DNA from: an uncultured delta proteobacterium
Lineage (GTDB): Bacteria > Desulfobacterota > WTBG01 > CAIYCZ01 > CAIRTM01
Length of the DNA: 64,000 nt
NCBI GenBank assembly: GCA_963718965.1
Contig: CAVRBJ010000002.1
Location: forward strand, 7,936-71,935
Direction of reading: 5' to 3'
Shown: positions 4,658 through 52,493 of the stretch, one piece after another
Numbering within the stretch: position 1 is the first letter of the stretch
Layout: every line of letters starts with the position of its first letter
Made by a program: the position numbers and the translations under genes
Notes under the pieces: generated by a model
The model's database searches: none
Told to the model about the DNA's origin: nothing
The model's input: the letters and a program-made list of their open reading frames with translations, nothing else

Positions 4658-4664
4658 ATGGCAT

Positions 4665-6008: not shown

Positions 6009-6010
6009 GC

Positions 6011-7087: not shown

Positions 7088-7099
7088 TGAACGGTTCCC

Positions 7100-8512: not shown

Positions 8513-8537
8513 ATCATTCCCGACGCGCCTCTCAGGC

Positions 8538-11796: not shown

Positions 11797-12143
11797 GGCA
11801 CGATCACCACCTGTGTTTTTCTGGGCAGGGTCATGCCCAGCTGGTTGAGTGCTATCGTCTCAAGTCGCGACGACGATTTGAGTGCCGCCCGCTCGACTTT
11901 CAGCTTTTTATTCTCCTGAACGAGCTCCTCATGCACTTTATGATCATCAGAAATACGATATCCGATTTCCAGCGAATAAATCCGCACCCAGAGAAATATG
12001 AAAAAAGCCAGCATGGTTAGTGCGCACATGCAGATAATGCATGCCAGATCCCTGCCGGAAACATCCGTGTCACGCCGCACGTGCTGACGGGCTAAAACAT
12101 TTGTGTGGATGAATTTTTCAGCCGACGCCATAAAATTCTGCAT
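11790..12143 (-). CDS. ftsL: cell division protein FtsL-like (small bitopic, coiled-coil)
   Basis: 117-aa ORF with a single TM helix (LACIICMCALTMLAFFIFLWV) followed by a heptad-like region. It occupies the canonical slot between rsmH and ftsI and overlaps the ftsI start. Confidence 0.7.
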   Translation of the reverse strand: MQNFMASAEKFIHTNVLARQHVRRDTDVSGRDLACIICMCALTMLAFFIFLWVRIYSLEIGYRISDDHKVHEELVQENKKLKVERAALKSSSRLETIALNQLGMTLPRKTQVVIVPW

Positions 12144-34851: not shown

Positions 34852-36370
34852 ATGAAAATCCAGGTAAAAAAAGGCTATATTGCCGCTGAACGGAGCGAGG
34901 CGGTTGTGGCGGGCGTATTTGAAGGCACAAAAAAACTTGCCGGCGCTGCAGCTGCCCTTGACTGGGCTGGGGGCGGTTTAATTTCCGGCATGCTCAAAAA
35001 CGGCGACTTCACGGGCAAATTGTGGAAAACCGCTGCCCTGTATCCCGATAAAGAGCTGCACCTGAAACGGATCGTACTGGTAGGGCTTGGAAAGGAAAAA
35101 GATTTCACCAGCGACAGGCTCCGGGGTGCAGCATCGGCGGCTGCACGGGCCGTGCGCGACCTTGGCGTTACAAGCATGCTGCTGCCCCTTGACTTTGCCA
35201 CTACGACATTCAGCTCTCACGACACAGCGCGGGCTCTCGTGGAAGGCGTGCTGCTCGGGCTGTATCAGTTTAAAGAATTTAAAACACAAAACAATGGCAA
35301 CGGCGGCAAGCCCTTCACGGCATGCACGCTGCTGGCAGGCACAGCCGCCGGCCTTGCGGCCGCAAAAAAAGGCGCGGCACATGCCCAGGTCCGTGTCGCA
35401 GGCGGTCTGCCTTGCCCGCGATCTTGTAAACAGGCCGTCAAACACGGCAACGCCGGGGCATCTTGCACAGGCGGCAAAATCGATAGCCGCGCAGCATGGC
35501 ATCACCTGCACGGTGCTGAACGGACAGCAGGCGAAAAAACTCGGCATGGGAGCTTTTTGCTCAGTGGCCCGCGGCAGCGATGAGCCTGCACGCTTTATCA
35601 TCCTTGACTACAAGCCGCACACGAAAAAAACCCCGCCCACCATCGTGCTCATCGGCAAAGCCATCACTTTCGACAGCGGCGGCATTTCAATTAAACCCTC
35701 ACAGGGCATGGAGGAAATGAAAACCGACATGGCAGGCGGCGCGGCAGTGCTCGGGGCCATGCAGGCGGCAGCGGCATTAAAACTCCCGGTGCATGTCGTG
35801 GGAATCGTACCGGCCACGGAAAACATGCCCAGCGGCCATGCTCTCAAGCCAGGTGACATCATAAAAGCCATGTCAGGCAAAACCATAGAAATAATCACCA
35901 CCGATGCCGAGGGCCGCCTCATTCTTGCCGACAGCCTTACCTATGCGCAGCGCTATAAGCCTGCGGCTATTATCGACCTCGCAACGCTTACCGGGGCATG
36001 CATCATTGCGCTGGGGCATGCTGCATCAGGCGTCATGAGCACGGATGAAAAACTGACGAAAAAAATTCAGGCCGCTGCTGAGGCAACCGGCGAAAAAGTC
36101 TGGCCTCTGCCGCTGTATGAAGAGTATGCAGAGCAGCTGAAAAGCGATGTGGCAGATCTTAAAAACTCAGGCGGCAGGCCTGCCGGCGCCATAACGGCAG
36201 GATGCTTTTTAAAGGAATTCGCCGGCACTATCCCCTGGGCTCATATCGACATTGCCGGCACGGCCTGGGCTGCAAAGCCCCTGCCCTACACGCCAAAGGG
36301 AGCCAGCGGTATCGGCGTCCGGCTGCTGGTGGAACTGATCGAACAGTGGGGAGATACCGCAGCGCTGTAG
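34852..36370 (+). CDS. pepA: leucyl aminopeptidase (M17), one frame break near 35385
   Basis: The N-terminal domain lies in ORF 34852..35583. The catalytic domain lies in ORF 35087..36370 with VCLARDLVNRPSN, KAITFDSGGISIKP, TTDAEGRLILAD and LATLTGAC. Confidence 0.9.
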
Positions 36371-37734: not shown

Positions 37735-39402
37735 CTACAACTTCAGCACTTCACAGTCTTTGATCATTGAAAGCGCCTCGTCGGCTGACTGAGCGGTTTT
37801 GAGCATCTGCAGCAGGTGCCGGTTCCGTGCGGCTTCGGCGGCAAGCCCGAGTATCTGGACATGGGTGCTTGAATCTTGCGCAGGCGTCAGGATCAAAAAA
37901 ACACATTCTATGGGCTTATCGGTTTTTACATCAGCCACACCCTGCTTTGTTATGCCGATGGCGATTATCGGCGCATGCAATACTGTCAATACGCGCATGG
38001 GGAAATGCCACTGCTTCATTAAAAAACGTTGAGCCCTGATTCTCGCGCTCAAGCACTGAAGCCAGGATATCTTCATAGCTGGCGTCAGTGCCTGTGCAGG
38101 ATGCTTTTACAAGCCTTGCAATTATTTCCTGCTTTGTTACCGCATGCTCCCGCATCACAATGCGCTCCGCAGCTAAAAGGCTGCTCAGCGTAAGGCTGGC
38201 CGCCGGGTTCGGTTATCGCCCCTGCAGTCGTAATCACTGGCGGTTCTTCTGCAGGCTTGGGCATAGCAGCTTCCCCTTTGCGGGTATCAAATACCACAAT
38301 CGTAATGCCGCGCGCGGCTTCCGTCAGGCGCTGTACAATGGTCTTGCTGCCAAGCAGCTTCTGCCAGAGCGACTGATGTCTCGGGCTGCCGATGACAATA
38401 TGACCGACACGATACTCACGGGCAAAGCGCAGTATGGTATCGACAACATCCTCTCCCTTGTAGGTGAAGACCATGGCTCCGAGCTGTTTTGCCAGGGTGA
38501 GCGTTCCTGAAAGTTGGCGCTGAACGCTTGAGTCTATGGCCGTGGGATCTTCACGCGGAGTCTGGACATATACGGCATACCAGTTGCGGTTGAGCTTTCC
38601 TGCAAGCCGCGATGCATACCGCAGCAGCATCTCGCTGTTGGGCCCGTTTGAGCTGAGGCAGGCCATGATCTGGTCGGGGGCAATGGTTGCTTCCTCCTCA
38701 AGCGGCTCACGCCTGCGGTAATCAATCTGGGAGGCAAGCTCCCGCAGGGTGAGCTCCCGGAGCTGCTCAAGATTATTGGTGATGAAAAAATTTCCAAGGG
38801 CCGTTTCGATGCGCGATTGGGGATAAATTTTACCTTCCCGTAGACGCTGCTGAAGGTCTTCCGTGGCAAGATCGATATTGACGATCTGGTCAGCTTCGGC
38901 AAGCACGGAATCCGGGAGCCGCTCACGCACCTTCACTTGAATGGACTTTTCAATCGTGTCGTACAGGCTCTCCAGATGCTGAACATTCATGGTGGTGATG
39001 ACATGAATCCCCACGGAGAGCAGATCTTCAATATCCTGATAGCGTTTTGCATTACGACTGCCGGGCACATTGGTGTGGGCCATTTCATCGATGAGCGCGA
39101 CGCCCGGCCTGCGGGCGATGATGGCGTCCACATCCATCTCTTCGACCGTGATGCCCCGGTACTCCTGCCTCAGGCGCGGGATAACTTCAAGCCCTTCGAT
39201 GAGCTGCGCGGTTTCAGCCCGTCCATGGGTTTCCACCAGGCCCACGACAACATCGATGCCTTCATTTTTAAGACGATGGCCCTTCCTGCAACATTTGATA
39301 GGTCTTGCCGACGCCGGCGCAGTACCCCAGATACACTTTCAGTTTGCCGCGTTGCGAGTGTCGTATCAACCGTAAAAAAGAGCTTGTTTTATCTTCCGCC
39401 AT
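37735..39402 (-). CDS. KdpD N-terminal sensor domain / Usp domain protein fused to a PTS EIIA type-2 (PtsN-like) domain; no histidine-kinase domain; three frame breaks near 39270, 38205, 37965
   Basis: The hand-translated start [41 protein letters not shown] joins ORF 38085..39245 (VETHGRAET, DEMAHTNVPGSRN, NVQHLESL, then a Usp-like IMACLSSNGPNSE...GHIVIGSP). After a PKPAEEPP linker it continues as LSSLLAAERIVMREHAVTKQEIIARLV...NEAVAFPHARIDSI (ORF 37931..38158) and APIIAIGITKQGV...ECVFLILTP...HVQILGLAAE (ORF 37735..38076). Its start overlaps the kdpC end. Confidence 0.75.
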
Positions 39403-39993
39403 AAACTCTCACCTTATGCGATTTAACGACATATTGAGCATGCAACACATTCACCCTCGACTCGCCGAAAACCAGCAGATCGCTTCCTTCCGTATGCTCC
39501 TGTATTTTTTTCTGAACATACCTCAAGGCTTATGTTCCTTGCTTTGGCAATGCGCGGAGCCTGCAAAAGCGCGTTCTGAAGGCTTATATGGGGATCAAGC
39601 CCGCTGCCCGACGCGGTTACCGCATCGGCAGGCACCAGAGCATCACGGGCAAGGCCGTTCTCCTGCCGGTAGTCTGCAACGCGCTGCCCGACCGCTTCGA
39701 GAAGCTTTTTTGAAAGCGGCCCCAGATTGCTGCCGCCGGAGGCTGCGGCGTCATACCCGTCGCCTGCTGCCGACGGGCGCGGATGAAAATACTGCGGACC
39801 CGCAAATCCCTGGCCAATAAGACTTGAGCCAACAACACGGCCTTCCTCGTATGAGCAGCGATCCACCTGCCTGATGCGGAAACATCAGCTGCCCCAAGCC
39901 CCATACAGCCAGTGGATACAGGCAGCATACAATAAAGGCAAGCGAGGCAGTTGCAATCGCTGCCGTGCGAAATTCTTTTATAAGAGCTTTCAT
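39389..39993 (-). CDS. kdpC: K+-transporting ATPase subunit C, two frame breaks near 39852 and 39508
   Basis: [46 protein letters not shown] (ORF 39751..39993). Then [15 protein letters not shown]...[10 protein letters not shown]...[11 protein letters not shown]...[13 protein letters not shown] (ORF 39423..39866). A hand-translated tail [13 protein letters not shown] ends at 39389. The second break coincides with a 7-nt homopolymer at 39505-39511. Confidence 0.85.
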
Positions 39994-40009
39994 GGTAGTT
40001 CAGCCCTTC

Positions 40010-42032
40010 CTATACAAGATGTAAAGCATTGACGAGAATATCGATTACTTTTATCCCAACAAACGGCACGACCAGACCGCCGAGGCCGTAAATTAACAGA
40101 TTTCTACGCAGCATCACGGAAGCCCCCACTGGCCGGAACTGAACACCCCGCAGGGCAAGCGGAATCAGGGCAATGATGATAAGGGCATTGAATATCACGG
40201 CGCTTAAAATGGCGCTTGAAGCAGACTGAAGCCCCATGATATTGAGGGGCGCAATAACGGGAAAAACGCCGATGAGCATGGCCGGTATGATGGCAAAGTA
40301 TTTAGCCACATCATTGGCAATGCTGAACGTGGTGAGCGCCCCGCGGGTGATGAGCATCTGCTTGCCGATCTCTACGATTTCAAGAAGCTTTGTGGGGTTG
40401 GAGTCAAGATCGACCATATTGCCAGCCTCTTTGGCCGCCTGCGTACCCGTATTCATGGCAACGCCAACATCAGACTGCGCCAGTGCCGGAGCATCGTTGG
40501 TGCCGTCGCCGGTCATGGCTACCAGATGTCCCTCGGCCTGCTCCCGACGAATGAGGGCAAGCTTATCCTCGGGCTTTGCTTCGGCCACAAAATCATCAAC
40601 CCCTGCCTCAGCCGCAATGGCTGCGGCGGTTAATCGGTTATCGCCGGTAATCATGATGGTCTTGATGCCCATGGCCCGGAACCGGTCAAAACGGTCCTTC
40701 AAGCCCTCCCTTGACAATATCTTTCAAATGGATAACACCCAGAACTTTTGACCCATCAGCAACAACAAGGGGCGTACCCCCGGACTGTGAAATCCGGTTA
40801 AGCGCTGCCTGTACATCAAACGGAAAGGCCTTTCCGATAAAATCACATACTGCTGAAGCAGCGCCTTTTCGTATCTTGCGGCCATCTATATCCACACCGC
40901 TCATGCGCGTCTGTGCGGTAAAAGGCTGAAACTGCGCGTGCGGCAGCTCTGCAATGGAGCGGCCCCGGAGGCCATGCTGTTTTGCCAGCACCACAATGCT
41001 TCTGCCCTCAGGCGTCTCGTCGGCAAGGGAGGCAAGCTGGGCAGCGTTTGCCAGCTCCTGCATGGCCACACCTTCCGCGGGGATGAACTCGGTTGCCTGC
41101 CGGTCCCCCAGTGTTATGGTGCCGGTCTTGTCAAGCAGCAGCACGTCCACATCGCCCGCCGCTTCTACGGCCCGACCGCTCATGGCAAGCACATTTTTCT
41201 GCACCAGCCGGTCGATGCCCGCAATGCCGATGGCGCTTAACAGCCCGCCGATGGTTGTCGGAATGAGGCAGACCAGCAGCGCGACGAGCACGGTAACGGA
41301 AAACGACATGCCTGAATATAGCCCGAAAAATTTCAGGCTCATGATGACTACCAGGAAGATGATCGTCAGGGCCGACAGCAGGATGGTCAGGGCTATTTCA
41401 TTGGGCGTCTTCTGCCGCTTGGCCCCCTCGACAAGGTTTATCATCCGGTCAAGAAAGCTCTCGCCCGGATTGGCCGTGACAATGACTTTAATCCGATCTG
41501 ATAGCACACGCGTTCCGCCTGTCACAGCGCTGCGATCACCTCCTGCTTCTCTGATGACTGGTGCGGACTCGCCCGTAATGGCTGACTCATCGACCGTGGC
41601 AACGCCTTCTACGATCTCGCCGTCGGCCGGAATCACCTCACCAGCCGAAACAAGCACCATATCGTGTTTCCGAAGCTGCTCGGCCGGCACCTCCTCAAGT
41701 TCACCGTTTTCATGGATACGGTTTGCCAGGGTTTTCGTGCGGGTTTTGCGCAGTTCATTTGCCTGTGCCTTACCGCGGCCTTCGGCCATGGCCTCGGCAA
41801 AATTGGCAAACAGCACAGTAAACCAGAGCCAGAGCGTTATTTGTAGGATAAAGTCAAATGTTTCATTGCCGGATTTATAAAAAAGTCCGGCAGTCGTAAT
41901 TGCAGCGCCGACTTCGGTCACGAACATAACGGGGTTTTTGAGCATGGACACAGGGTTCAGCTTCCTGAATGAATTCACAACAGCTGGAAGCATTATTGCC
42001 GTATCAAAAAGTGAGCGGGCTTTAGCAGCCAT
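40010..42032 (-). CDS. kdpB: K+-transporting P-type ATPase subunit B, one frame break near 40710
   Basis: ORF 40686..42032 has [12 protein letters not shown] (the DKTGT phosphorylation site). ORF 40010..40717 has ITGDN and [18 protein letters not shown]. Confidence 0.92.
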
Positions 42033-42044
42033 TGAAAATTCCTC

Positions 42045-43779
42045 CTAAAATACAACCGCAGATTTAGTCATGAGAAAATGTTCAACTACCGGGCCAAGTG
42101 AAAGCACCGGCACAAAGGTCAGTGCGCCCACAATTAGAATTGTCCCCACCAGAAGCACGACAAATGTCAGCCCCGCAACCGGAAAACTCCCTTCGCTGCG
42201 AGGGAGCAGCTTCTTTTTTGCCAGATTCCCTGCAAGGGCAAGTATGGGCACAATCATGAAAAAGCGGCCAAAAAGCATGGCACAGGCAAGGGTCGTGTTC
42301 AGCCACGGGGTGTTTGTGTTCAGGCCTGCGAGAGCGCTTCCGTTATTGCCGGTGGCCGATGAATATGCATAAAGTAACTCGCTCAACCCGTGGGGCCCCT
42401 GATTATTCAAACCTGCAAGCCCCCAGTTGCTGACCAGCCGCCCAGGCGGTAAAGCCAAGAATGCTGAATATCAAAACCAGTACGGCAAGGGCGCTCATCT
42501 TTACATCATAGGCCTCGATCTTTTTGCCGACATATTCGGGCGTGCGGCCTACCATGAGCCCTGCAAGAAAAACCGTCAGCACAACAAACACCAGCATGCC
42601 GTAAAGCCCCGCGCCCACGCCCCCGAAAACAACCTCTCCAAGCTGGATATTTAAAAGCGGTATCAGACCACCCAGGGGCGTAAAGGAATCATGCATGGCA
42701 TTGACCGCGCCGCAGGAGGCATCCGTGGTCACCGTTGCAAAAAGCGCGGAATTAAAAATTCCGAAACGGACTTCCTTGCCTTCCATGTTGCCGGCTGAAG
42801 GGTCAATGCCCAGGGCATGATAGCGCGGATTCCCCGCACTTTCAGCCCACCAGCAGACAGAGAAGCTTCCAAGAAAAAGAACCAGCATTGCCGCCCAGAC
42901 CGCCCAGCCGTGCTTCTGGTTTTTCACCATCCTGCCCAGGTAGTAGGTTAAGGCGCTCGGAATTAAAAATATTGCCAGCATTTGCAGAAAATTTGCCAGC
43001 GGGGTCGGGTTTTCATAGGGGTGCGCGGCATTGGCGTTCATAAACCCGCCGCCGTTTGTACCGAGCATCTTTATAGCAACCTGTGATGCCATGGGACCCT
43101 GCGCAATGGTCTGCGCTGCTGCAGCCTGCTGCAGCGGCTGATCAAGAGCCTGCACGGTCACGTACGGCTTGAAATTCTGAACCACGCCCTGGGAAACAAG
43201 AAAGACGGCAAACAGCAGGCTTATCGGCAGCAGCAGGTAGAGATTGATCCGAACCAGATCAATCCAGAAATTGCCGATGGTTCTGGCGCTGTGGCGGCTA
43301 TGCCCCGCACAAGCGCGGCTGCTACTGCAATGCCTGCGGCGGCGGAGACAAAATTGTGCAGGGTAAGGCCTACCATTTGGGAAAAATACGACAGGGTCGA
43401 CTCACCGCCGTAGCTCTGCCAGTTGGTATTGGTGGTAAAGCTCACCGCCGTATTGAAGGCAAGGTCGGGGCTCACGGGCCCGAACCCCTGCGGGTTGAGC
43501 GGCAGAAAGTGCTGCAGCCGAAGCACTGCGTAAGTAAAAAGGAGGCTTACCAGGCTGAAAACAAACAGCGATACGGCATACTGTTGCCAATTTTGCTCGT
43601 CTTCGCTTTTTATGCTGAGAAGTCTGTATAAAAATTTTTCGCAGGGCTGCAGCCACCGGATCAAGAAATGTTTTTCCGCCCGCGTCAAGAACGCTTGCCA
43701 GATAAACGCCAAGCGGCTTTGTCAGGGCCAGCAGCAGGCCCACAAACAGCGCAAGCTGTATCCATCCATATATATCCAT
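42045..43779 (-). CDS. kdpA: K+-transporting ATPase subunit A, at least three frame breaks (near 43670, 43270, 42440)
   Basis: Four collinear ORF fragments: 43402..43779, 43221..43712, 42403..43185, 42045..42458. Motifs: [57 protein letters not shown]. Confidence 0.9.
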
Positions 43780-43794: not shown

Positions 43795-43878
43795 TTAAAA
43801 TATTTCCGGTCTGATAATAGAAACAAAAAGATAGATGATAAGTACGACCCCGATTATGCCGACACCGATTTCCATCAT
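43795..43878 (-). CDS. kdpF: K+-transporting ATPase subunit F (27 aa)
   Basis: Hand translation gives MMEIGVGIIGVVLIIYLFVSIIRPEIF. It is a single TM helix ending in the KdpF-type YL...RPExF tail. It ends 15 nt before the kdpA ATG and is not in the ORF track (too short). Confidence 0.75.
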   Translation of the reverse strand: MMEIGVGIIGVVLIIYLFVSIIRPEIF

Positions 43879-43881
43879 AGT

Positions 43882-43965
43882 TCAAATCCTTTCACAGGCC
43901 AGTGCATAGAGAATGCACAGGCCGAAAAAAATCACTGCTCCAACGATAAACAGCATATCGATCAT
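43882..43965 (-). CDS. second KdpF-like 27-aa membrane peptide
   Basis: Hand translation gives MIDMLFIVGAVIFFGLCILYALACERI. It is preceded by AGGAAGAG and ends 3 nt before the kdpF ATG. The tail LYALxxER(I) resembles E. coli KdpF ...LVYALINAEAF. Confidence 0.55.
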   Translation of the reverse strand: MIDMLFIVGAVIFFGLCILYALACERI

Positions 43966-43993
43966 GATGTTTGTCTCTTCCTTTAAAGAGGGT

Positions 43994-45805
43994 TCAGCCC
44001 GTTTGAGCGCAACCGTAAACGTGCTGCCTTCTCCAACTGTGCTTTCCACAGTTATACATGCCGCCGTGGGCTTCGACGATCTCGCGGGCTATGGCAAGCC
44101 CCAGCCCTGCGCCCGCCTGGGCTTGCTGGCCGGGGACGCGAAAAAACTGGTCAAATATATTATTGAGATACTCCCGCGGTATGCCGGTGCCGGTATCGGC
44201 AACGGAAAAAACAACCCGTTGTTCATCAGCATGCGCTGAAATGGTGACCGCACCACCGGCAGCGGTATGTTTCAGCGCATTTGAAAGCAGATTATCAAAC
44301 ACATGCACGATCCGCGATGCATCCGCCATGACCTCAGGCAGATCATCCGGTACATCCGTTTTCAAGCTGATGCCTGCGTCCTGAAAAGCCGTTGCGAAAT
44401 GCTCTGCTGCCTGCGCAGCTATCACCTGCGGCGAGACAGAGGTTAAGCTCATCCGGGCTTTTCCCGATTCTATGCGGCTGATATCAAGCAGGTCTTCCAG
44501 AATGGCGTTCAGCCGGTCGCTGTCTTCCCGTGCCGCCAGAAGCAGCTCCGCCTGCTTTTCCGTAAGCGCGCCTACTTTTTCTTCCAGCAGCAGGTGTATC
44601 GCCATGCGTATTGAGGTAAGCGGTGTTTTCAGCTGATGCGAAACGGTGGAAACAAGTCCCCGCTTCATGTCATCATTGTGCTGCTGCTGGGTGACATCCT
44701 TAAAAGACAGCAGCACGCCGGTTGTCTGATGCCGAGTGTCAAGAACAGGCACGGCATGGGGCTGAAAAAAATGCTCTGTGCCGTTCACAAACAATTGAAA
44801 AACTTTTTTCTGCTCCCGGGCTGTAATCCGCCGTCAGCCAAGCTGGCATCGGCATGCAATGTGCGTATCCACTCATGCGGGCTGTCTTGAATTTTGCCGC
44901 CGGCGCGCAGCCCGAAAAATTTTCTGGCTGATTCCGTGGCCGCATCTATGGTGCCGTCCATATCTACAATTGCCGTTATGTCGGGCAGATTCTTAAATGC
45001 CTGCTGGGTTGAGAGCTGCATCAGGGCAAGCTTTGCCTGATCGCTGCGCCTGAACTCGCGCAGGCTCTGCACCATATCGTTAAATGCTTCCGACAGCCGG
45101 CCGATTTCATCATGGCTGCCGACCTGAATGCAGAGATTGAGATTGCCCTTTTTTATCTCATCGGCCGACTGAATGAGTCTGCTGATCGGGTAGAGTATCC
45201 ACTGCCGGGTAAAAATGATAAAACTTACGGCAACAAGAGCACCGACAAAAAGCAATAAACCCATTTGCTGCCGGGCTGATGCCGCTTTTGCACGCGCCAG
45301 ATCATTTGCATCGCTCATATTCTGCTGGTTCAGATGCAGGACCTCATCTGCGGCCTTCTTAGTCTGCTGGAAGAGCGGAAACAGTTTCTTGAAATACATG
45401 TCCCGCCGGGCGTCTTGAGAAGTATCAACGATTAAAAAATCAAGCATCACGCTGCGGTACTGCGAAAAAAGAGTGCGGATCCGCTCCGCCTTCTCTCGAC
45501 TCTCCGGGAACAGTTATGTTATTCAGCTCAATTTTAAGAGCCTTCTCAAACTTCAGCTCATTTTCACTTATTATGTCTTTGCCTTCCTTATAGCTGAGCA
45601 GGCAGAAAAGAGCCCCGCTGTCCATCCTCTCCAGGGCTTCTTTCATGTCCTGACAGGCGATAACGCTGCGGTAGTTCTCGCGCAGGATCACATCGATTGA
45701 CTGGCCCAGATCGGAAACCAGGTAAATGCCCTGACTGCCGATAAGTACAAGTATGACCAGCAGCCCGCCAAAGCCTATTGATAATTTTCTTCGAAGATTA
45801 AACAT
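43994..45805 (-). CDS. sensor histidine kinase (periplasmic helical sensor, HAMP, PAS, HisKA, HATPase_c), two frame breaks near 45465 and 44800
   Basis: Fragments 45440..45814, 44785..45450 and 43994..44794. Features: two TM helices, HAMP (IKKGNLNLCIQVGSHDEIGRLSEAFNDM), H-box VSHQLKTPLTSI, N-box LLSNALKHT, G-boxes DTGTGIP / GAGLGLAIA. Start is taken at the second ATG (MFNLRRK), 9 nt after AGGAGG. Confidence 0.85.
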
Positions 45806-45832
45806 AGCATCCATCCTCCTGCATCAATGTTT

Positions 45833-45850
45833 ATGCATAGCATGTGCCAA
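45833..45850 (-). promoter_or_regulatory. sigma-54 (-24/-12) promoter upstream of the kinase-kdp operon
   Basis: The minus strand reads TTGGCACATGCTATGCAT. The GG and GC dinucleotides have exactly the consensus TGGCAC-N5-TTGCW spacing. It lies ~28 nt upstream of the kinase start and directly downstream of a sigma-54 activator gene. Confidence 0.7.
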
Positions 45851-45911
45851 TACTATATCTTCGAAACTGCCCAGAATTACTGCGGTTATTTTTAAGTCGA
45901 AAAACATGGCC

Positions 45912-45956
45912 TTGAATTGTGCAAGAAGGAAAGCTTAAAGGTGTTGCAATTTGCAA
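45912..45956 (-). promoter_or_regulatory. possible enhancer (UAS) sites for the adjacent sigma-54 activator
   Basis: Two related 13-mers, TTGCAATTTGCAA (45944-45956) and TTGAATTGTGCAA (45912-45924), are built from palindromic TTGCAA halves. They lie ~65-110 bp upstream of the -24 element. Confidence 0.3.
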
Positions 45957-45978
45957 GGTCGGCAGGAAAGTTGAAAAG

Positions 45979-47334
45979 CTAAATACCGTAGTCTTTGCGC
46001 TTGCGCCACAGGGTTGCCTGATCAATGCCGAGCACGTCGGCAGCCTCTTGCAGGGATTTTGTGGAGGCAAGTACGCGGCGTATATGCTGCTCTTCGATCT
46101 GTTTCAGCGGGACCGGGTCACCGAGCTGCGGCAACGCTTCGCCGGGTGCGATGCAGGCAGGAAGATATGCGCTTCCTACCATGTCCGTCGGGCAGAGTAT
46201 GGCTGCACGCTCAATCACATTGCGCAATTCCCTGATATTGCCCGGCCATGAATAGCCCTTAAGGGCTTGGAGAGCATCATCGGTAAAGCCTTTAAACAGA
46301 CGATGATTGTTGCGGCCGAAAAAGCTAAGCAGCCGCTGTGCAAGAGCTGCAATGTCATCCTGCCGCTCGCGCAAAGGCGGAATCTCGATTTGAATCACGT
46401 TGAGCCGGTAAAACAAGTCCTCGCGAAAGCGGCCTTCTGCAACCGCCTGCTCAAGGTCGATATTGGTGGCGGCAATAAGGCGCACATCCGCCTTGCGGGG
46501 CGCATAATCGCCCACGCGCTCATACTCCCTGTCCTGAATAAAGCGCAGCAGCTTGGGCTGTATTGAGAGCGGCACGTCACCGATTTCATCAAGCAGCAGC
46601 GTGCCTCCTTCGCATGCCGCTATCCTGCCGGGGTTGTCGCGCACAGCGCCGGTGAAGGCCCCTTTGACATGTCCGAAAAGCTCGCTCTCAAGCAGCTCCG
46701 GGGTAAGGGTCGGGCATGACACAACGCCGAAAGGTTGCTGCGCGCGCCTGCTCCAGACATGCAGCATGCGGGCCAGCACGGTTTTCCCTGTGCCGCTCTC
46801 ACCGCGCAGCAAAACAGTCGCATCAGTGGTCGCAACCTTGCGGGTTTCATTGATTGCAAGCTGCATCTTTGAGCAGGTTGTTGAAAAGTCTAATTCCGGG
46901 GTTAAGCGGCACATATCCTCCTGCAGCGCAGAAACTTTCTGTTCAAGGGAACGAATTTCTGCAACCTTATTGACGGCAAGCTTCACCTGCGCCGGTGTAA
47001 AAGGTTTGGGGATATAGTCGGTTGCGCCGCGGCGCATGGCCTCGACTGCCGTATCGATGGACGCATAGGCCGTAATGACGATAATTTTCAGACAGGAATT
47101 TTTTGCCAGCAGCTGCGGTATAAGATCAAGTCCGTTTGCCGTGCCAAGGCGCAAATCAACAAAGGCAAGCTCAAACGTGCTGCGTGACGCTTCAGCCACG
47201 GCATCATCAAAGTTGCTGACAGCAACAACTTTGTAGCCTTCCGTTTCCAGGCACACGGCAAGTGTTTTGCGGATATTTATTTCATCATCCACAACAAGGA
47301 TATTTAAGGTATGCAGGGTGTTTGTATCAGCCAT
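45979..47334 (-). CDS. sigma-54-dependent response regulator (NtrC family: receiver, AAA+, Fis-type HTH)
   Basis: Intact 451-aa ORF. Receiver ILVVDDE...FVDLRLG; AAA+ GESGTGKTVLA, GAFTGA, ESELFGH; C-terminal HTH LQEAADVLGIDQATLWRKRK. Confidence 0.92.
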   Translation of the reverse strand: MADTNTLHTLNILVVDDEINIRKTLAVCLETEGYKVVAVSNFDDAVAEASRSTFELAFVDLRLGTANGLDLIPQLLAKNSCLKIIVITAYASIDTAVEAMRRGATDYIPKPFTPAQVKLAVNKVAEIRSLEQKVSALQEDMCRLTPELDFSTTCSKMQLAINETRKVATTDATVLLRGESGTGKTVLARMLHVWSRRAQQPFGVVSCPTLTPELLESELFGHVKGAFTGAVRDNPGRIAACEGGTLLLDEIGDVPLSIQPKLLRFIQDREYERVGDYAPRKADVRLIAATNIDLEQAVAEGRFREDLFYRLNVIQIEIPPLRERQDDIAALAQRLLSFFGRNNHRLFKGFTDDALQALKGYSWPGNIRELRNVIERAAILCPTDMVGSAYLPACIAPGEALPQLGDPVPLKQIEEQHIRRVLASTKSLQEAADVLGIDQATLWRKRKDYGI

Positions 47335-47354
47335 GTTTGATGTTTATTTAAAAA

Positions 47355-47927
47355 CTATACCTTCTTTGCAATCATGCTGGCAAGAGCGTTATAGCCGCCT
47401 TTGCCGTCGGGCTCGATGCGCTCGTGGTAGAACAGGACGAACAGATCCAGAAACGACTCGAGCAGCTCATTGGGTTTTAATAAAAAATCGGGGTTATGAG
47501 GCCCATCGAAACGCTGCTGGTCGAGCGTGTAGGTCTCGAAAAAAAGAAGTCCGCCCTTTTTAAGCCCGGCTTTTATGCGCGGCACAAGATCGCGCTCAAG
47601 AAAGTAGAAGTTAAGAATGACGTCAAAATGGTTTTCCGGAAACGGCCATTCGAGCATATCTGCAGAAACAGCAGCAATTGAAACCCCCTTATATCGGGCA
47701 TATTCACGGGCATGGGCAACGGCTGCCTGCGAGCGGTCAATACCTGTCACGGTATAGCCGCGTTGCGCAAGAAAAACGCTGTTCTGCCCGGCGCCCATGG
47801 CGATATCAAGGGCCGTTCCTGCCAATTCCAAGCAAGCTGCATGCTCCAGCAGAAATGCTGCCGGCTCCGGAACATCCGCCAGAGTCTTGATGCTGTACTT
47901 TTCTTCCCATGCCCGTTCATTGCTCAT
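47355..47927 (-). CDS. class I SAM-dependent methyltransferase
   Basis: Intact 190-aa ORF with motif I ALDIAMGAGQNSVFLAQRGYTVTGIDRS. Confidence 0.75.
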   Translation of the reverse strand: MSNERAWEEKYSIKTLADVPEPAAFLLEHAACLELAGTALDIAMGAGQNSVFLAQRGYTVTGIDRSQAAVAHAREYARYKGVSIAAVSADMLEWPFPENHFDVILNFYFLERDLVPRIKAGLKKGGLLFFETYTLDQQRFDGPHNPDFLLKPNELLESFLDLFVLFYHERIEPDGKGGYNALASMIAKKV

Positions 47928-47957
47928 GCAAACCTCTCAGTGCGATTGCCTGGGCTC

Positions 47958-47983
47958 GTAGGAACGGTCGCGACCGTTCCTAC
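47958..47983. repeat. perfect 26-bp palindrome (hairpin between hydF and the methyltransferase gene)
   Basis: GTAGGAACGGTCGCGACCGTTCCTAC is self-complementary over its full length. There is no flanking T-run, so it is REP-like rather than a classical terminator. Confidence 0.6.
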
Positions 47984-48045
47984 CATGTTCGCAATTAAGC
48001 ACTGCCTCACAAAAAAAGAAAATACACTGCACGACTGCATAACCG

Positions 48046-49265
48046 TCACTTTTCAAGCAGGCTCTGCTCATAAGGAAAAGGCGACAGCGCTCTTTTCAGC
48101 ACCCCGTGCACAAATGATATGGCAATGCCGTAGTTGGTAATGGGTACATTCAGGGATTGCGCATCGCCGATGCGCGCAAGCATCTCCTGCCGGTTTATCA
48201 TGCAGCCGCCGCAGCTGATGACAAGGGCGTACTGCGAAATATCCTTATCCACCAGCGGCCCGGCATTGGTCTCAAAAACAATATTTTTGCCCGTATAGCT
48301 GCGTATCCAGCGGGGCAGTTTCACCCGGCCGATATCATCGGGCATGGGGTGATGGGTGCAGGCCTCGAGAATCAGCACCTTGTCCCGTCCTGCAGACTGT
48401 CGATGCGGCGCACGCCGCGCACGAATTCCGCAAGGTCGCCCTTCTGCCGCGAAAAAAGAATCGAGAAGGTCGTAAATTTGACATCATCCGGTATATCGCC
48501 CGACACCTTCAAAACAACCTGCGAGTCACATATTACCAGAGCGGGTTTTCTGCCAAGCCCCCGCAGCGCATACTCTATCTCGCGCTCCTTGGCAGTAACG
48601 GCCACGGCATCATTATCAAGAATATCGCGAATGATCTGCACCTGCGGCAGTATCAGCCTGCCTTTGGGCGCCCCGAGGTCGATCGGGACAATCAGCAGCA
48701 CGATATCGCCATGGCTTATAAGATCGCCGATAATCGTTTCGCGCTCAACAAATAGCTTACTGCCCGCCTCGACGATAAGCTTTTTGACCGCATCGATATT
48801 GTCGCCCGTGCGGCATGAAATGGCTGCATACGGCACACCAAGGGCTGCAACCTTCTCGATCTGTGCAGTGTCAGGCTGCATCCGATCACTTTTATTGAAG
48901 ACTACCAGCACGGCCCTGCCCTGCCCCAGCAGTTCACGGATCAGAGCTTCATCATCCGCGTCAAAATCTTCCCCTGTCGTGACAAGCACGGCAAGGTTAA
49001 TCTTGCGGATTATCTGGCGCGTGCGCTCCACGCGCAGCAGGCCAAGCTCGCCCGTATCGTCAAGGCCTGCCGTGTCATACATATAAACCGGCCCGATGCC
49101 CGATATCTCCATGGCCTTGCCGACAGGGTCTGTCGTGGTGCCCGCCACATCGGATACTATGGCTGTGCTCTGCCCGGTCAGCGCATTAATAAGCGATGAC
49201 TTGCCAACATTGCGTTTGCCGAAAATGCCTATATGGAGCCTGTTGCCGACCGGCGTCGTATTCAT
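48046..49265 (-). CDS. hydF: [FeFe]-hydrogenase H-cluster maturation GTPase HydF, one frame break near 48385
   Basis: ORF 48372..49265 has GTPase motifs GKRNVGKSSLINALTG, DTAG, NKSD. ORF 48046..48378 has the HydF cluster-binding EACTHH...SCGGCM. The break coincides with a GGG/CCC run; ...SLQDG(D)KVLILEACTHH is restored by adding one G. Confidence 0.85.
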
Positions 49266-50651
49266 TTTTTTATTCCCATCATGCGTATGTTTTCAGCAGA
49301 CAGAAGGCTGTCGAGCTCCTGCTCGGACAGAAGATTATCGGCAAGAATCAGCTGCCGCAGGGGCTGCTTTGTTGCACAGGTGCTTCAGGTACAGCCTTGA
49401 TGCCGCTTCATGGCCGATAGACTGAGCAAGACAGGTCACCACAGCAATGGAATCGGAAAGGTGGGCAGCAATATTCTCGCGGTTCAGCTGCAGGCCCTCT
49501 ACCGCTTTTGTCCGCAGGCGGTTGACGGCAAGCTCAAGGCTGCGCATATTGTCGAGCATGAGCGTTGCCGCAAGGGGATAAAACTGGTTCAATTCCAGAT
49601 TCCCGAGCCCCGCGGCCTGGGCGATGACGCTGTCATTGCCCATAACCAGAAGCGCTGTCTGCGACACAAACTCAAGAATAACCGGGTTGACCTTGCCCGG
49701 CATGATGGATGAGCCCTCCTGCACAGCCGGCAGCACCACCTCGGCAAAACCGCCGGCCGGGCCCGATGACAGCAGGCGCAGGTCTTCTGATATTTTTAGA
49801 AGATTCACTGCGAGCGTTTTTAAAAGACCCGATACTTCAACAACGCTGTCAAGGTTCTGCGTGGCATCGACCATATTCTCGGCCCGCGTTACCTGCAGGC
49901 CGGTTACGGCCCGCAGCTTTTCAATGACGGCAAAGATATATTTCTGCGGAGCGCCGAAGCCCGTGCCGATGGCCGTGCCCCCGAGGTTCACAACCTTGAT
50001 GCGTTCGCGGGCTTTAAATATCCGCCAGCGGTCCCGCCCGATGGCTTCGGCATAGGCGGCAAACTGCATGCCCGCGGTCATGGGCAGGGCATCCTGCAGC
50101 TCGGTGCGCCCGAGGCGCACGACATCGGTAAACTCCAGCTCTTTCTCCTGCAACGCCTGCTGAAGGGCCACAAGGCCGGTCTCGATCCGTTCAAGATAGA
50201 TAAGCAGGGCAATACGCAAGGCTGTGGGATAGGTGTCATTGGTAGACTGATGCAGGTTGACATGCTCAAGAGGATGAATGAATCCGTAATCTCCTTTGGC
50301 CCTGCATGCCCGCTCCAGCGCATGGTTGGCAATCACTTCATTAACATTCATATTAAGCGACGTGCCCGCCCCGCCGCACAGGGGATTGACTATAAAATCG
50401 TCAAAAGCATTCCCGGCAAGCAGCCCCTCGATTGCCGCAATGATGTGGTCTGCCTTATCAGTATCGAGATACCCCAGCTCGCGGTTGGCAAGGGCTGCGG
50501 CTTTTTTAACCTGCAGATAAGCCTGCAGGAAAACCGGGTCGTGCCGCTGCCCTGAATCGCCGAAATTTTCGCGTGCCCGCTGCGTATGAATGCCAAAATA
50601 GCGGGCATCATCGATCTGCAAAGCACCCAGAAAATCATGTTCAGTGCGCAT
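49262..50651 (-). CDS. aspartate ammonia-lyase/fumarase class II family protein, one frame break near 49375
   Basis: ORF 49335..50651 has GAGTSLNMNVNEV, HQSTNDTYPTA and the signature GSSIMPGKVNPV. The hand-translated C-terminus ...ATKQPLRQLILADNLLSEQELDSLLSAENIRMMGIKK ends in ATGA, overlapping the hydF start. Confidence 0.85.
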
Positions 50652-50707
50652 GGTATGCCCTATATTTTTGTTTGAGTCTTAAGGGTATTGCGTTAGAATC
50701 ATCTATA

Positions 50708-50736
50708 ATATTAAGCCAATACGGCTTCCGAGTCAA
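50708..50736 (-). promoter_or_regulatory. putative sigma-70 promoter for the aspartase-like/hydF operon
   Basis: The minus strand reads TTGACT (50736-50731), a 17-nt spacer, then TAATAT (50713-50708). It lies ~57 nt upstream of the ATG at 50651. Confidence 0.4.
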
Positions 50737-50752
50737 GAAACAGGAGTTGTCC

Positions 50753-52421
50753 ATGGAAAATGCCGAAATCGGGCCTGCCCGGCACCGCCGGGTCAATCGA
50801 CCTAAAAAAACTCGGGCTTGACCACTACCCCAACATTGCGCTCACCCGCTTTCTCAATGTCGATTATGTGCATGCCAAAACCGGCGACGGCGGCGATATC
50901 TATGTGACCCGCCACGGCCTGCCGTTCATCGGCCACATGGAGCCGGAAAACTGGTATACCCCCACGTGGTTCAAGGCACACCGTGAAAAGCTGGCCGGCA
51001 CAAGCACCGTCTACAAGGTCACAACAAAACCCGTCGGCAGGGCAAATCGCTCGACATGGTCGTCAAGTGGTGCCGCATGGGGCAGGATGTGCCGCTGGAA
51101 ACAAAAATCATCGAGGACGTGCTGCGGGCCGAATTCAACAGCCCCTTCGAGGAATTCTCCCTGGTGGAGGAACTGCGCGCCAACAGCTATGGCCCGAGCG
51201 ACCTGAAAATAATGCTGCAGAAGCCCCTTGCCGTGTATGTGCCGCCAGAGCGGCTCCAGCTGTGGCAGACCGGCCGCTCCAAGGCCAAAATCATGAGCAA
51301 AATCGCCAAGCACCCCGGCATAGAAATAGACATCCTGCGGCAGTATATCCTTATCTACAAATGGGTGAGAGGGTTGAACGCCGTTGCTGCTTTCGAGCAG
51401 GCCGGCCTGCCCGATCAAAAACTGTCGGCATTCACGCAGCAGGTCATAAACGACCTGCGGCTCAAGGGCTACCGCGTGCTTGATCAAAAACCCGTTCACT
51501 TCATTATGCGCCCGCGGCCCGACGGCTCTATCATGCAAAGGCGCGACAGCCGCATGCCCTATGCCCTTGTTGATTTCGAGCTGCTTGAGCGCATGCCCGA
51601 GCATGAAGAGCAGGTGAAAGGCATCGCGCCGCGGCAGCTACCTTGTGAAGCAGCGCGACCGCTTCCGGGACGATGTGCCGAAAAAATGGCCGCAGCACCT
51701 GCGGCCCATGACGATCATGGGCGTGGACTATGTGTATGGATTAACCGAAAGCACAAACGGCCATCTCTGGGTTGCGGGGCATGACCCGGACCTGTTCGAC
51801 TATTTTCAGCCCGAGCGCTGGCGCAAGACCCCCCGCACCAGGCTTTCTCCCACGGACGACGTTTTTTACACCAAAACAAAAGATAATATTAACATCGTCT
51901 GGAAAGTATCAAAAGTGGGGGAACTGCCGGACGCAGCCGCTGGTCCCGGCGCAAGGATACAGGAGTGCGGCTATAACAGCCCCTTTGAGGAATTTTCCAT
52001 CGCCTTCGAACTCACGCGGCGCGGCATCGCTACCATCTACCCGCGCGCAATTTACAAAACGGGCCTCACTGCCGATACGGGCTGTATTGCCGACAAGCGC
52101 AGATATGGTCCGCATGCCGACATACTGACACCTGAAGGCATTCCCGTACTGGAGATGGATCATGACTATATTACGGTCTGGGGATTCTGGAACGGGCCCG
52201 ATGAATCGCTTGCGGAACACGATGGCGAATTCTATACCGGCATCAATGCAGCAAATGCCCTGCGCCGCGAAATCATTACCGGCCAGGAGTATGACCGCCT
52301 CATGCAGCGCCTGCAGCGCCTGCTTGCAGAAAATGGCATGAAAAACCTGAGCCTTAAAGGAAACCATGTGCTGCTGTCGCTCAATCCGCGGGGCGAGCTC
52401 ATGCGCGACCAGCGAAAATGA
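50753..52421 (+). CDS. hypothetical protein with two tandem ~270-aa protein-kinase-fold-like modules, two to three frame breaks (near 50760?, 51045, 51630)
   Basis: ORFs 50760..51206, 51056..51784 and 51645..52421 are collinear. Module 1: VDYVHAKTGDGGDIYVTRHG...PENW...VVKWCRMG...FNSPFEEFSLVEELR...LDQKPVHFIM...LVDFE. Module 2: VDYVYGLTESTNGHLWVAGHD...PERW...IVWKVSKVG...YNSPFEEFSIAFELTRRG...LKGNHVLLS. AGGAG lies 7 nt before the ATG at 50753. Confidence 0.6.
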
Positions 52422-52493
52422 GCTTGACATCCGGCTGTGCAATTTCGAGACCATGCAAAGGATTGCATGATGCCGAAATCTGAAGATGAAGCG

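What the first reader, a model, noticed from the sequence alone, without database searches (positions are those of the whole stretch)
43994..47334. kdp operon apparently driven by a sigma-54 promoter with a dedicated NtrC-type activator and sensor kinase
- An intact sigma-54 enhancer-binding response regulator (45979..47334) is followed by a near-consensus -24/-12 element, TTGGCACATGCTATGCAT (45850-45833, minus strand).
- After the promoter come a HAMP-PAS histidine kinase, two KdpF-like peptides, kdpA, kdpB, kdpC and the KdpD-N/EIIA fusion.
- Intergenic gaps are only 3-28 nt from the kinase onward, so no separate kdp promoter fits between the kinase and kdpF.
- Classical kdp control uses KdpD/KdpE (OmpR family, sigma-70).
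- Here a sigma-54 system and a PtsN-like domain (PtsN is usually encoded in the rpoN operon) converge on the same locus.
- Two TTGCAA-based 13-mers upstream (45912-45956) are candidate enhancer sites.
Basis: partly seen in the sequence, partly recalled or inferred. Interest (0 to 1): 0.62.

Follow-up and report, generated by a model that had tools for sequence, protein, structure and literature searches.

The report
Sigma-54-controlled Kdp potassium pump operon
This potassium-pump (kdp) operon is almost certainly switched on through a sigma-54 promoter by the neighbouring NtrC-type two-component system, but the wiring was already shown in Desulfovibrio vulgaris in 2011, occurs in many phyla, and this copy carries what look like technical frameshifts.

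Summary
That covers an intact NtrC-type activator, the -24/-12 element TTGGCACATGCTATGCAT, two upstream 13-mers, a 4HB-HAMP-PAS kinase, two KdpF-like peptides, kdpABC and a KdpD-N/Usp/EIIA gene.

The promoter match alone is not rare; about 4.5 such matches are expected by chance in the window. Conservation carries the argument. In 80 related loci from at least 12 phylum-level labels, a -24/-12 element sits 41-53 nt (five loci ~71 nt) before the kinase start. The palindrome TTGCA-N3-TGCAA occurs at two fixed positions 31-32 bp apart in 60 of 64 loci, against 4.3 in shuffles. Where kdpFABC is separated from the kinase, each unit has its own sigma-54 promoter and site pair.

murG, murE, ftsI and pepA in the same window are also split, so this is most likely assembly noise.

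The wiring matches the published D. vulgaris DVU3334 system. The less described part is the KdpD-N/Usp/EIIA fusion. Verdict: real, a new member of a known kind, modest interest.

The parts
47354..47383 (-). Candidate sigma-70-type promoter (TTGCCA-18-TATAGT, 10 of 12) just upstream of the activator gene. A consensus match only.
   Evidence: The number of such hits in the region equals the chance expectation, so this is weak evidence.
45979..47334 (-). NtrC-family response regulator and sigma-54 enhancer-binding protein, 451 aa, intact. It has the receiver Asp (FVDLRL), GAFTGA and a C-terminal Fis-type HTH.
   Evidence: Sigma54_activat 213.7 bits, Response_reg 86.2, HTH_8 31.1. Orthologues at 64-89% identity appear.
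45944..45956 (-). Distal activator-binding site (UAS1), TTGCAAATTGCAA. It is a perfect TTGCA-N3-TGCAA palindrome starting 107 nt upstream of the -24 element.
45912..45924 (-). Proximal activator-binding site (UAS2), TTGCACAATTCAA, one mismatch to the palindrome, 32 bp from UAS1.
45833..45850 (-). Sigma-54 promoter TTGGCACATGCTATGCAT. GG is at 45848-45847 and GC at 45836-45835. The inferred start of transcription is near 45823.
   Evidence: It is conserved in position in 12 of 12 close relatives and 63 of the related loci.
43966..45805 (-). Sensor histidine kinase with a 4HB-type periplasmic module, HAMP, PAS, HisKA (H-box SHQLKTPL present) and HATPase_c. It is broken by three single-base indels (about 45499, about 44820 and about 44056). 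In this assembly its stop codon is missing, so the frame runs into the next peptide.
   Evidence: The intact 613-aa orthologue in G003 is shown.
43882..43965 (-). First 27-aa hydrophobic KdpF-like peptide (MIDMLFIVGAVIFFGLCILYALACERI).
43795..43878 (-). kdpF, 27 aa (MMEIGVGIIGVVLIIYLFVSIIRPEIF).
42045..43779 (-). kdpA, broken by three single-base indels (43652, 43300, 42435).
40010..42032 (-). kdpB, the P-type ATPase subunit, with DKTGT and the TGES serine present. It is broken by one insertion at about 40700.
39423..40000 (-). kdpC. The start is approximate. It is broken by three insertions (39850, 39519, 39441).
37735..39402 (-). One gene for a soluble KdpD-N (Walker A GYCAGVGKT, Walker B DE) - Usp - PTS EIIA_2 (AFPHAR histidine) fusion. 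It is broken by three insertions (39284, about 38217, 37976).

Best explanation
The locus is one member of a widespread eight-gene cassette. Its order is activator, then [2 UAS + sigma-54 promoter], kinase, small peptide, kdpF, kdpA, kdpB, kdpC and KdpD-N/Usp/EIIA.

Inferred mechanism:
- The membrane kinase (4HB-HAMP-PAS-HisKA-HATPase) phosphorylates the receiver Asp of the NtrC-type activator.
- The activator assembles on two TTGCA-N3-TGCAA palindromes, 32 bp apart and centred about 126 and 94 nt upstream of the predicted start.
- Using its GAFTGA-containing AAA+ domain, it remodels sigma-54 RNA polymerase bound at TGGCAC-N5-ATGCA.
- Transcription then runs through the kinase (positive feedback) and the tightly packed kdp genes.
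- The last gene encodes a soluble short KdpD. [quoted passage not shown] Its fused PtsN-like EIIA domain would add an input from the PTS phosphorelay.

Shown here: the sequence elements, their conservation, their co-occurrence and their uniqueness in the genome.
Inferred: all of the biochemistry.

The 13 frame breaks are most likely insertion-biased assembly errors, not gene decay.
For: Domains and motifs are.

Promoter and binding sites:
- The promoter and sites are at the stated coordinates.
- They are conserved among 12 loci from the same class.
- In 80 loci from genome contigs, the order activator-kinase-kdpA-B-C-KdpDN-EIIA is kept in most.
- A -24/-12 element is found upstream of the kinase in nearly all loci with an adjacent kinase, mostly 41-53 nt before its start.
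- The palindrome (up to 2 mismatches) occurs in 60 of 64 loci, against 4.3 in shuffles. It sits at two fixed positions, about -107..-97 and -77..-64 from the -24 element.
- Loci with divergent kdpFABC and kinase units carry two divergent sigma-54 promoters, each with its own site pair. L042 has the promoter and site pair directly before kdpA.

This genome and its relatives:
- rpoN is intact.
- The only paired palindrome followed by a -24/-12 element in 3.6 Mb is this one.
- The KdpD domain occurs only here.
- In relatives it occurs once per genome, in frames of about 560 aa where not cut off or broken, and co-occurs with the activator orthologue in 11 of 12.
- EI, HPr and a ptsN-like gene next to rpoN are present.

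Published precedent:
- DVU3334 binds upstream of kdpF at CGTTACATTTTGTAACG, position -149. That site has the same 5-3-5 palindrome architecture and distance as here (PMC3333781). It is listed as a sigma-54 regulon for potassium uptake (PMC4641369).
- KdpD-N acts as a serine kinase of KdpB S162 (bioRxiv 10.1101/2023.11.09.566405).

Frameshifts as artefact:
- murG, murE, ftsI and pepA are split in the same window.
- Further indels lie in 47335-52480.
- 11 of the 13 breaks are single-base insertions.
Against:
- The -12 element reads ATGCA, not TTGCA, and the pattern is not rare by chance in 64 kb.
- The frame-break density in the kdp stretch (about 1.6 per kb) is somewhat higher than in the 5 kb upstream (about 0.6-1 per kb). 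The activator has none, so real decay of the operon cannot be excluded.
- The signal sensed by the kinase is unknown.
- The roles of the KdpD-N and EIIA domains rest on analogy only.
- Sequence orthology to DVU3334 itself was not tested. Only a Syntrophobacter MAG homologue at 69% identity was seen.
Confidence: 0.8

Rival explanations
1. The operon in this particular organism is a decaying pseudogene cluster. The 13 indels would be real, the pump and kinase dead, and only the activator still intact.
For: There are 13 frame breaks in 8.1 kb and none in the adjacent 1.36-kb activator. The density is somewhat above that of the upstream 5 kb.
Against: - Essential genes murG, murE and ftsI are broken in the same window, and no viable cell could tolerate that.
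- 11 of 13 events are single-base insertions, a technical signature.
- Between the breaks the proteins stay 80-90% identical to relatives, with all catalytic motifs intact and no in-frame stops or deletions.
- At 1.6 breaks per kb, zero in the activator has P of about 0.11, which is not significant (inference).
Confidence: 0.1
2. The sigma-54 promoter drives only the kinase. The kdp structural genes would be transcribed mainly from an internal sigma-70 promoter in the kdpF region or from read-through.
For: Two weak sigma-70-like matches (9 of 12) lie at 43862-43814, just before kdpA. In D. vulgaris two other regulators also target the kdp promoter region (PMC3333781).
Against: - Those matches are at chance level for the region, 8 found against 7.3 expected.
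- Gaps from the kinase to kdpB are 0-15 nt.
- Whenever kdpFABC is separated from the kinase it has its own sigma-54 promoter and site pair, so the structural genes are sigma-54-dependent in this family.
Confidence: 0.07
3. The -24/-12 match and the 13-mers are chance similarities in an ordinary intergenic spacer.
For: The pattern with one mismatch is expected 4.5 times per window by chance.
Against: Positional conservation in about 60 loci across phyla, against shuffled controls. The paired site is unique in the genome.
Confidence: 0.01

Closest known systems
Desulfovibrio vulgaris Hildenborough DVU3334-DVU3339.1 Kdp system (Rajeev et al. 2011, PMC3333781; Kazakov et al. 2015, PMC4641369), with a counterpart in Syntrophobacter fumaroxidans
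   Same: - An NtrC-type sigma-54 response regulator, a PAS histidine kinase and a separate KdpD-N/Usp protein are clustered with kdpFABC.
- A palindromic activator site of the same 5-3-5 design (TTACA-TTT-TGTAA there, TTGCA-N3-TGCAA here) lies about 150 nt before the first gene's start.
- A sigma-54 promoter is predicted.
   Different: - Gene order differs. In D. vulgaris the regulator and kinase lie at the 3' end of the operon (kdpF-A-B-C-KdpDN-HK-RR). Here the regulator is upstream and the promoter sits between regulator and kinase.
- Here there are two sites 32 bp apart and an extra small peptide.
- The KdpD-N/Usp protein carries a C-terminal EIIA domain, which the paper does not mention for DVU3336.
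- Direct sequence orthology to DVU3334 was not tested here.
Escherichia coli KdpD/KdpE with PtsN (EIIA-Ntr) stimulation of KdpD
   Same: A two-component system controls kdpFABC. KdpD-N and Usp domains are present. An EIIA-Ntr-type protein is functionally linked to Kdp control.
   Different: - No full-length KdpD with TM, GAF and DHp-CA.
- No OmpR-type KdpE.
- A sigma-54 promoter in place of a sigma-70 one.
- The EIIA domain is covalently fused to KdpD-N and is not a free PtsN.
Short kinase-less KdpD (KdpD-N/Usp), e.g. Deinococcus geothermalis, an atypical serine kinase of KdpB S162 (bioRxiv 10.1101/2023.11.09.566405); NCBIfam NF038185 KdpD_non_kinase
   Same: A soluble KdpD-N plus Usp protein, with Walker A G-X5-GKT and Walker B DE conserved. 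KdpB keeps TGES. The genome lacks KdpE.
   Different: - It has an extra C-terminal EIIA_2 domain.
- It scores below the NF038185 cut-off (343 against 550 bits).
- The operon does have transcriptional control by a different two-component system, whereas that paper suggests such species rely only on post-translational control.
Classical NtrC-type enhancer promoters (e.g. glnAp2) with tandem upstream sites
   Same: Two dyad-symmetric sites about 100-130 nt upstream of a -24/-12 promoter, spaced by about three helical turns. The activator is a receiver-AAA+-HTH protein.
   Different: The site sequence, the signal and the regulon all differ. An IHF-like core between sites and promoter is seen in only 17 of 64 related loci and not in this window.

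Membership tests
Sigma-54 (-24/-12) promoter | GG and GC dinucleotides separated by 10 nt, within TGGCAC-N5-TTGCW | tested here: met
   TGGCACATGCTATGCA has correct spacing and one mismatch (A for T at the first -12 position). The ATGC variant also occurs in six related loci.
Sigma-54 (-24/-12) promoter | Correct orientation and distance upstream of a gene, conserved in orthologous loci | tested here: met
   The element starts 44 nt before ATG 45805. The equivalent distance is 41-53 nt in most of 63 loci.
Sigma-54 (-24/-12) promoter | rpoN present in the genome | tested here: met
   TIGR02395 scores 432 bits against a cut-off of 277, in a 473-aa open frame at C22.
Sigma-54 (-24/-12) promoter | Transcription start about 12 nt downstream of the GC, dependent on RpoN and an activator | not testable with these tools
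NtrC-family response-regulator enhancer-binding protein | Receiver domain with phospho-acceptor Asp, AAA+ sigma-54 interaction domain with GAFTGA, C-terminal Fis-type HTH | tested here: met
   Pfam hits. GAFTGA and FVDLRL are read and conserved in 77-80 of 80 orthologues. No NCBIfam equivalog is reached.
DVU3334-type sigma-54 Kdp two-component system | Activator, PAS kinase and separate KdpD-N/Usp protein clustered with kdpFABC | tested here: met
DVU3334-type sigma-54 Kdp two-component system | Palindromic activator site resembling CGTTACATTTTGTAACG about 150 nt upstream of the first gene | tested here: met
   TTGCAAATTGCAA starts 151 nt before ATG 45805. It has the same 5-3-5 dyad, with G/C where D. 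vulgaris has A/T.
DVU3334-type sigma-54 Kdp two-component system | Sequence orthology of the activator to DVU3334 | not tested
The only indirect link is a Syntrophobacter sp. MAG homologue at 69% identity with the full cassette, and the paper reports an S. fumaroxidans orthologue.
DVU3334-type sigma-54 Kdp two-component system | Same gene order (regulator and kinase at the 3' end of the operon) | tested here: not met
   Here the regulator is upstream and the kinase is the first gene of the operon. This is a matter of arrangement, not of mechanism.
Canonical KdpD/KdpE | Full-length KdpD (KdpD-N, Usp, 4 TM, GAF, DHp-CA) with an adjacent OmpR-type KdpE | tested here: not met
   The KdpD domain occurs only in this locus, joined to Usp and EIIA. 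Relatives have one copy each in frames of about 560 aa. NF007793 scores 364 bits against a cut-off of 1123.
Short KdpD atypical serine kinase | Walker A G-X5-GKT, Walker B D-E, Usp domain, and a KdpB target serine in TGES | tested here: met
   GYCAGVGKT is in the window. Conservation is 54 of 55, 54 of 55 and 55 of 55 across loci. Kinase activity itself cannot be tested with these tools.
PtsN / EIIA-Ntr | PTS_EIIA_2 fold with conserved phosphorylatable histidine | tested here: met
   PF00359 scores 76.6 bits in the intact orthologue. AFPHAR is in the window. P-H-[AV]-R is found in all 50 loci.
PtsN / EIIA-Ntr | Free-standing protein reaching the PtsN equivalog score | tested here: not met
   It is fused to KdpD-N/Usp. 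TIGR01419 scores 58.7 bits against a cut-off of 138.7. A separate ptsN-like gene lies next to rpoN.

The most novel reading that the evidence does not exclude
The last gene of the cassette is a natural fusion of the KdpD-N serine-kinase domain, a Usp domain and a PtsN-like EIIA domain with an invariant histidine. It would make the pump's off-switch (phosphorylation of the KdpB TGES serine), or the activity of the partner histidine kinase, depend directly on the phosphorylation state of the PTS relay. That would be a covalent version of the PtsN-KdpD interaction known from E. coli. Together with the sigma-54 two-component pair, it would form a horizontally spread 'three-component' Kdp controller that replaces KdpD/KdpE in many non-proteobacterial phyla. 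I found no paper describing the fusion, and annotation pipelines call it either 'KdpD histidine kinase' or 'PTS sugar transporter subunit IIA'.
Probability: 0.4. Interest if true: 0.6.

Novelty: new member of a known kind. Interest (0 to 1): 0.3.

Why it matters
- It confirms that textbook KdpD/KdpE control is not universal. A sigma-54 circuit with a fixed promoter and enhancer layout governs the high-affinity K+ pump in many anaerobic and uncultured lineages.
- The site consensus (TTGCA-N3-TGCAA, two copies 31-32 bp apart) and promoter geometry can be used directly to annotate such operons.
- The conserved KdpD-N/Usp/EIIA fusion gives a testable link between PTS signalling and post-translational Kdp control.
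- For this genome specifically, the main practical message is that its gene calls are corrupted by single-base insertions.

Tried and rejected
- A window-wide pattern count showed that the -24/-12 match alone is not significant. I therefore dropped it as stand-alone evidence and used positional conservation.
- A simple sigma-70 scan found no candidate in the activator-kinase gap and only chance-level hits elsewhere.
- An IHF-like core between enhancer and promoter is enriched in relatives (17 of 64 against 1.9 in shuffles) but absent in this window, so I did not include it in the mechanism here.
- Pseudogenisation was considered and judged unlikely, because essential cell-wall genes are equally broken.
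- Literature searches for a KdpD-EIIA fusion or for sigma-54 kdp control outside Desulfovibrio found nothing beyond PMC3333781 and PMC4641369.
- Loci from the genome search could not be read in the Python box. Synteny statistics therefore rest on the 80 loci from genome contigs.
Full report
**Anatomy of the locus**

All elements lie on the minus strand.
- The ORF 47334..45979 encodes an intact 451-aa NtrC-family response regulator. It has Response_reg, Sigma54_activat with GAFTGA, an AAA lid and HTH_8.
- A 164-nt gap follows. It holds TTGCAAATTGCAA (45956-45944), TTGCACAATTCAA (45924-45912) and TTGGCACATGCTATGCAT (45850-45833).
- After AGGAGG (45820-45815) the kinase starts, most likely at ATG 45805. 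The alignment to relatives begins there.
- The kinase has a 4HB-type sensory module, HAMP, PAS, HisKA and HATPase_c.
- Next come two 27-aa hydrophobic peptides, the second a typical KdpF.
- Then follow kdpA, kdpB, kdpC and a gene for KdpD-N + Usp + PTS_EIIA_2. Gaps are 0-20 nt.
- A convergent Nramp gene ends the unit.

From the kinase onward nothing is an open frame.
- tblastn with intact orthologues from a genome of the same genus (G003) shows each protein spread over two to four frames.
- A four-way DNA alignment places 12 single-base frame-breaking indels. A three-way kinase alignment adds one more deletion.
- The 13 events are near 45499, ~44820 and 44056 (kinase); 43652, 43300 and 42435 (kdpA); 40700 (kdpB); 39850, 39519 and 39441 (kdpC); and 39284, ~38217 and 37976 (KdpD-N/EIIA).
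- Eleven are insertions, and none sits in a long homopolymer.

I read these as assembly errors, for four reasons.
- murG, murE, the ftsI-type transpeptidase and pepA in the same window are split in the same way.
- The 5 kb upstream of the activator also differs from a close relative by several frame-affecting indels, and a hydF-like gene is split there.
- Between breaks the proteins remain 80-90% identical to relatives with all catalytic motifs present.

The genome is a 49-contig MAG scored 79% complete.

**Is the promoter more than chance?**

On its own it is not. TGGCAC-N5-TTGCW with up to one mismatch is expected 4.5 times in 64 kb, and it was found once. At that rate, however, only about 0.006 matches are expected in this gap on this strand. 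Conservation settles the matter.

- Among 12 orthologous loci of the same class, TGGCA and the -12 TG are invariant, and both upstream sites are aligned blocks.
- A scan of one genome per species returned 80 loci whose activator is 64-89% identical. They carry labels from Thermodesulfobacteriota, Aminicenantes, Hydrogenedentes, Krumholzibacteria, Planctomycetota, Verrucomicrobia, Chlorobiaceae, Nitrospirales, Zixibacteria, Gemmatimonadales, Riflebacteria, Myxococcota and others. Several are closed chromosomes.
- Most keep the order activator-kinase-kdpA-B-C-KdpDN-EIIA.
- A -24/-12 element lies 41-53 nt (in five loci ~71 nt) before the kinase start in nearly every locus with an adjacent kinase.
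- TTGCA-N3-TGCAA with up to two mismatches occurs in 60 of 64 loci, against 4.3 in shuffles. It sits at two fixed positions, about -107..-97 and -77..-64 from the -24 element, 31-32 bp apart.

The most telling cases are the rearranged loci.
- Where kdpFABC and the kinase are divergent (L052, L085, L077), the shared spacer holds two divergent sigma-54 promoters. In two of the three each has its own pair of sites at one mismatch or fewer.
- Where kdpABC precedes the kinase (L042), the promoter and pair sit before kdpA.

Hence the structural genes themselves are sigma-54-dependent in this family. In the arrangement seen here, one promoter serves kinase and pump together.

**This genome**

- rpoN is intact.
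- The paired palindrome followed by a -24/-12 element occurs only at this locus in 3.6 Mb. This supports the idea of a dedicated activator.
- The KdpD domain occurs only here.
- In 30 relatives the KdpD domain occurs once per genome, in frames of about 560 aa where complete. It co-occurs with the activator orthologue in 11 of 12 cases. No canonical KdpD/KdpE therefore competes for the role, within the limits of incomplete assemblies.
- No sigma-70-like site lies in the gap. A 10-of-12 match just upstream of the activator gene may serve that gene.

**Comparison with what is known**

- Rajeev et al. 2011 showed by EMSA and DAP-chip that the sigma-54-dependent regulator DVU3334 of D. vulgaris binds upstream of kdpF at CGTTACATTTTGTAACG (-149).
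- They noted the split of KdpD into a sensor/Usp protein (DVU3336) and a PAS kinase (DVU3335).
- They also found the orthologue and motif in S. fumaroxidans.
- Kazakov et al. 2015 list DVU3334 -> DVU3339.1-DVU3337 as the potassium-uptake part of the sigma-54 regulome.
- The site here has the same 5-3-5 dyad and the same distance from the first start codon (151 nt).

The window is thus a member of a known kind with a different gene order. Direct orthology to DVU3334 was not tested.

**The last gene**

The less explored part is the last gene.
- The intact orthologue has KdpD (299 bits), Usp and PTS_EIIA_2 (76.6 bits) in one 555-aa chain.
- It falls below the cut-offs of the KdpD, KdpD_non_kinase and PtsN models.
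- Walker A G-X5-GKT, Walker B DE, the EIIA histidine (P-H-[AV]-R) and the KdpB TGES serine are conserved across the loci and present in the window.
- At least 7,995 protein clusters resemble it. All of the best 120 have the KdpD + EIIA_2 architecture, and they are named 'KdpD histidine kinase' or 'PTS sugar transporter subunit IIA' by pipelines.
- A 2023 preprint shows that KdpD-N is an atypical serine kinase that inactivates KdpB. It also shows that short KdpD-N/Usp proteins occur in species without KdpE, but it does not mention EIIA fusions or sigma-54.
- This genome also has EI, HPr and a ptsN-like gene beside rpoN, so a phosphodonor for the fused EIIA exists.

The inference is that the fusion ties the pump's off-switch, or the partner kinase, to the PTS state. 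This is plausible but untested.

**Earlier notes and verdict**

Earlier notes of this scan on other genomes reached the same reading of the cassette and the fusion. They are not independent evidence, but they show that this instance adds little. It is a new member of a known kind, in a noisy assembly, and of modest interest.

Noticed in passing
window 2450-11800 (minus strand): Cell-wall genes of the dcw cluster are split across frames. murG has its N- and C-terminal domains in overlapping ORFs 3021-3569 and 2450-3337. murE starts mid-domain at 8538-9539. The ftsI-type transpeptidase is truncated at 10338-11315. This is consistent with assembly indels.
   Followed up: partly
window 34852-36370 (+): The leucyl aminopeptidase (pepA) N-domain and catalytic domain lie in two overlapping frames.
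   Followed up: partly
window 48046-49265 (-): A GTPase gene (hydF-like) is split at about 48385 relative to a 421-aa intact frame in relative L024. Further one- and two-base differences from L024 lie at 52411, 51619, 51040 and 49377.
   Followed up: partly
window 43966-44049 (-): In this assembly the kinase has no stop codon before the first small peptide, so the frame runs on into it. In G003 a TAA precedes the peptide's ATG. This is probably another base error.
   Followed up: partly
L052 15990-16650; L085 6500-7250; L077 15800-16700: Divergent kdpF-A and kinase operons share a spacer with two back-to-back sigma-54 promoters and three or four palindromic sites. This is a compact bidirectional enhancer region.
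   Followed up: partly
L052 20304-20621: There is a second, weaker KdpD-N-like match (39%) just downstream of the fusion gene. It may be a canonical KdpD next to the cassette in that genome.
   Followed up: no
G029:C1:3097574-3098203: One relative has a KdpD-domain gene in a 663-aa open frame without an orthologue of the activator. Its best activator match is 42% identical. It may be a different Kdp control type in the same class.
   Followed up: no
80 loci: The activator is at least 64% identical across MAGs and closed chromosomes labelled as 12 or more phyla, and the whole cassette travels together. This suggests horizontal spread. No tree was built.
   Followed up: no
related loci, -40 to -30 from the -24 element: An IHF-like core (TCAA-N4-TTR) occurs in 17 of 64 loci, against 1.9 in shuffles, but not in this window.
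   Followed up: partly
G000 C42:4555-6856: HPr, EI and EIIA_2 matches lie in tandem on one strand, possibly a multidomain PTS phosphotransfer protein. A separate EI (C13) and a ptsN-like gene beside rpoN (C22) also exist.
   Followed up: no
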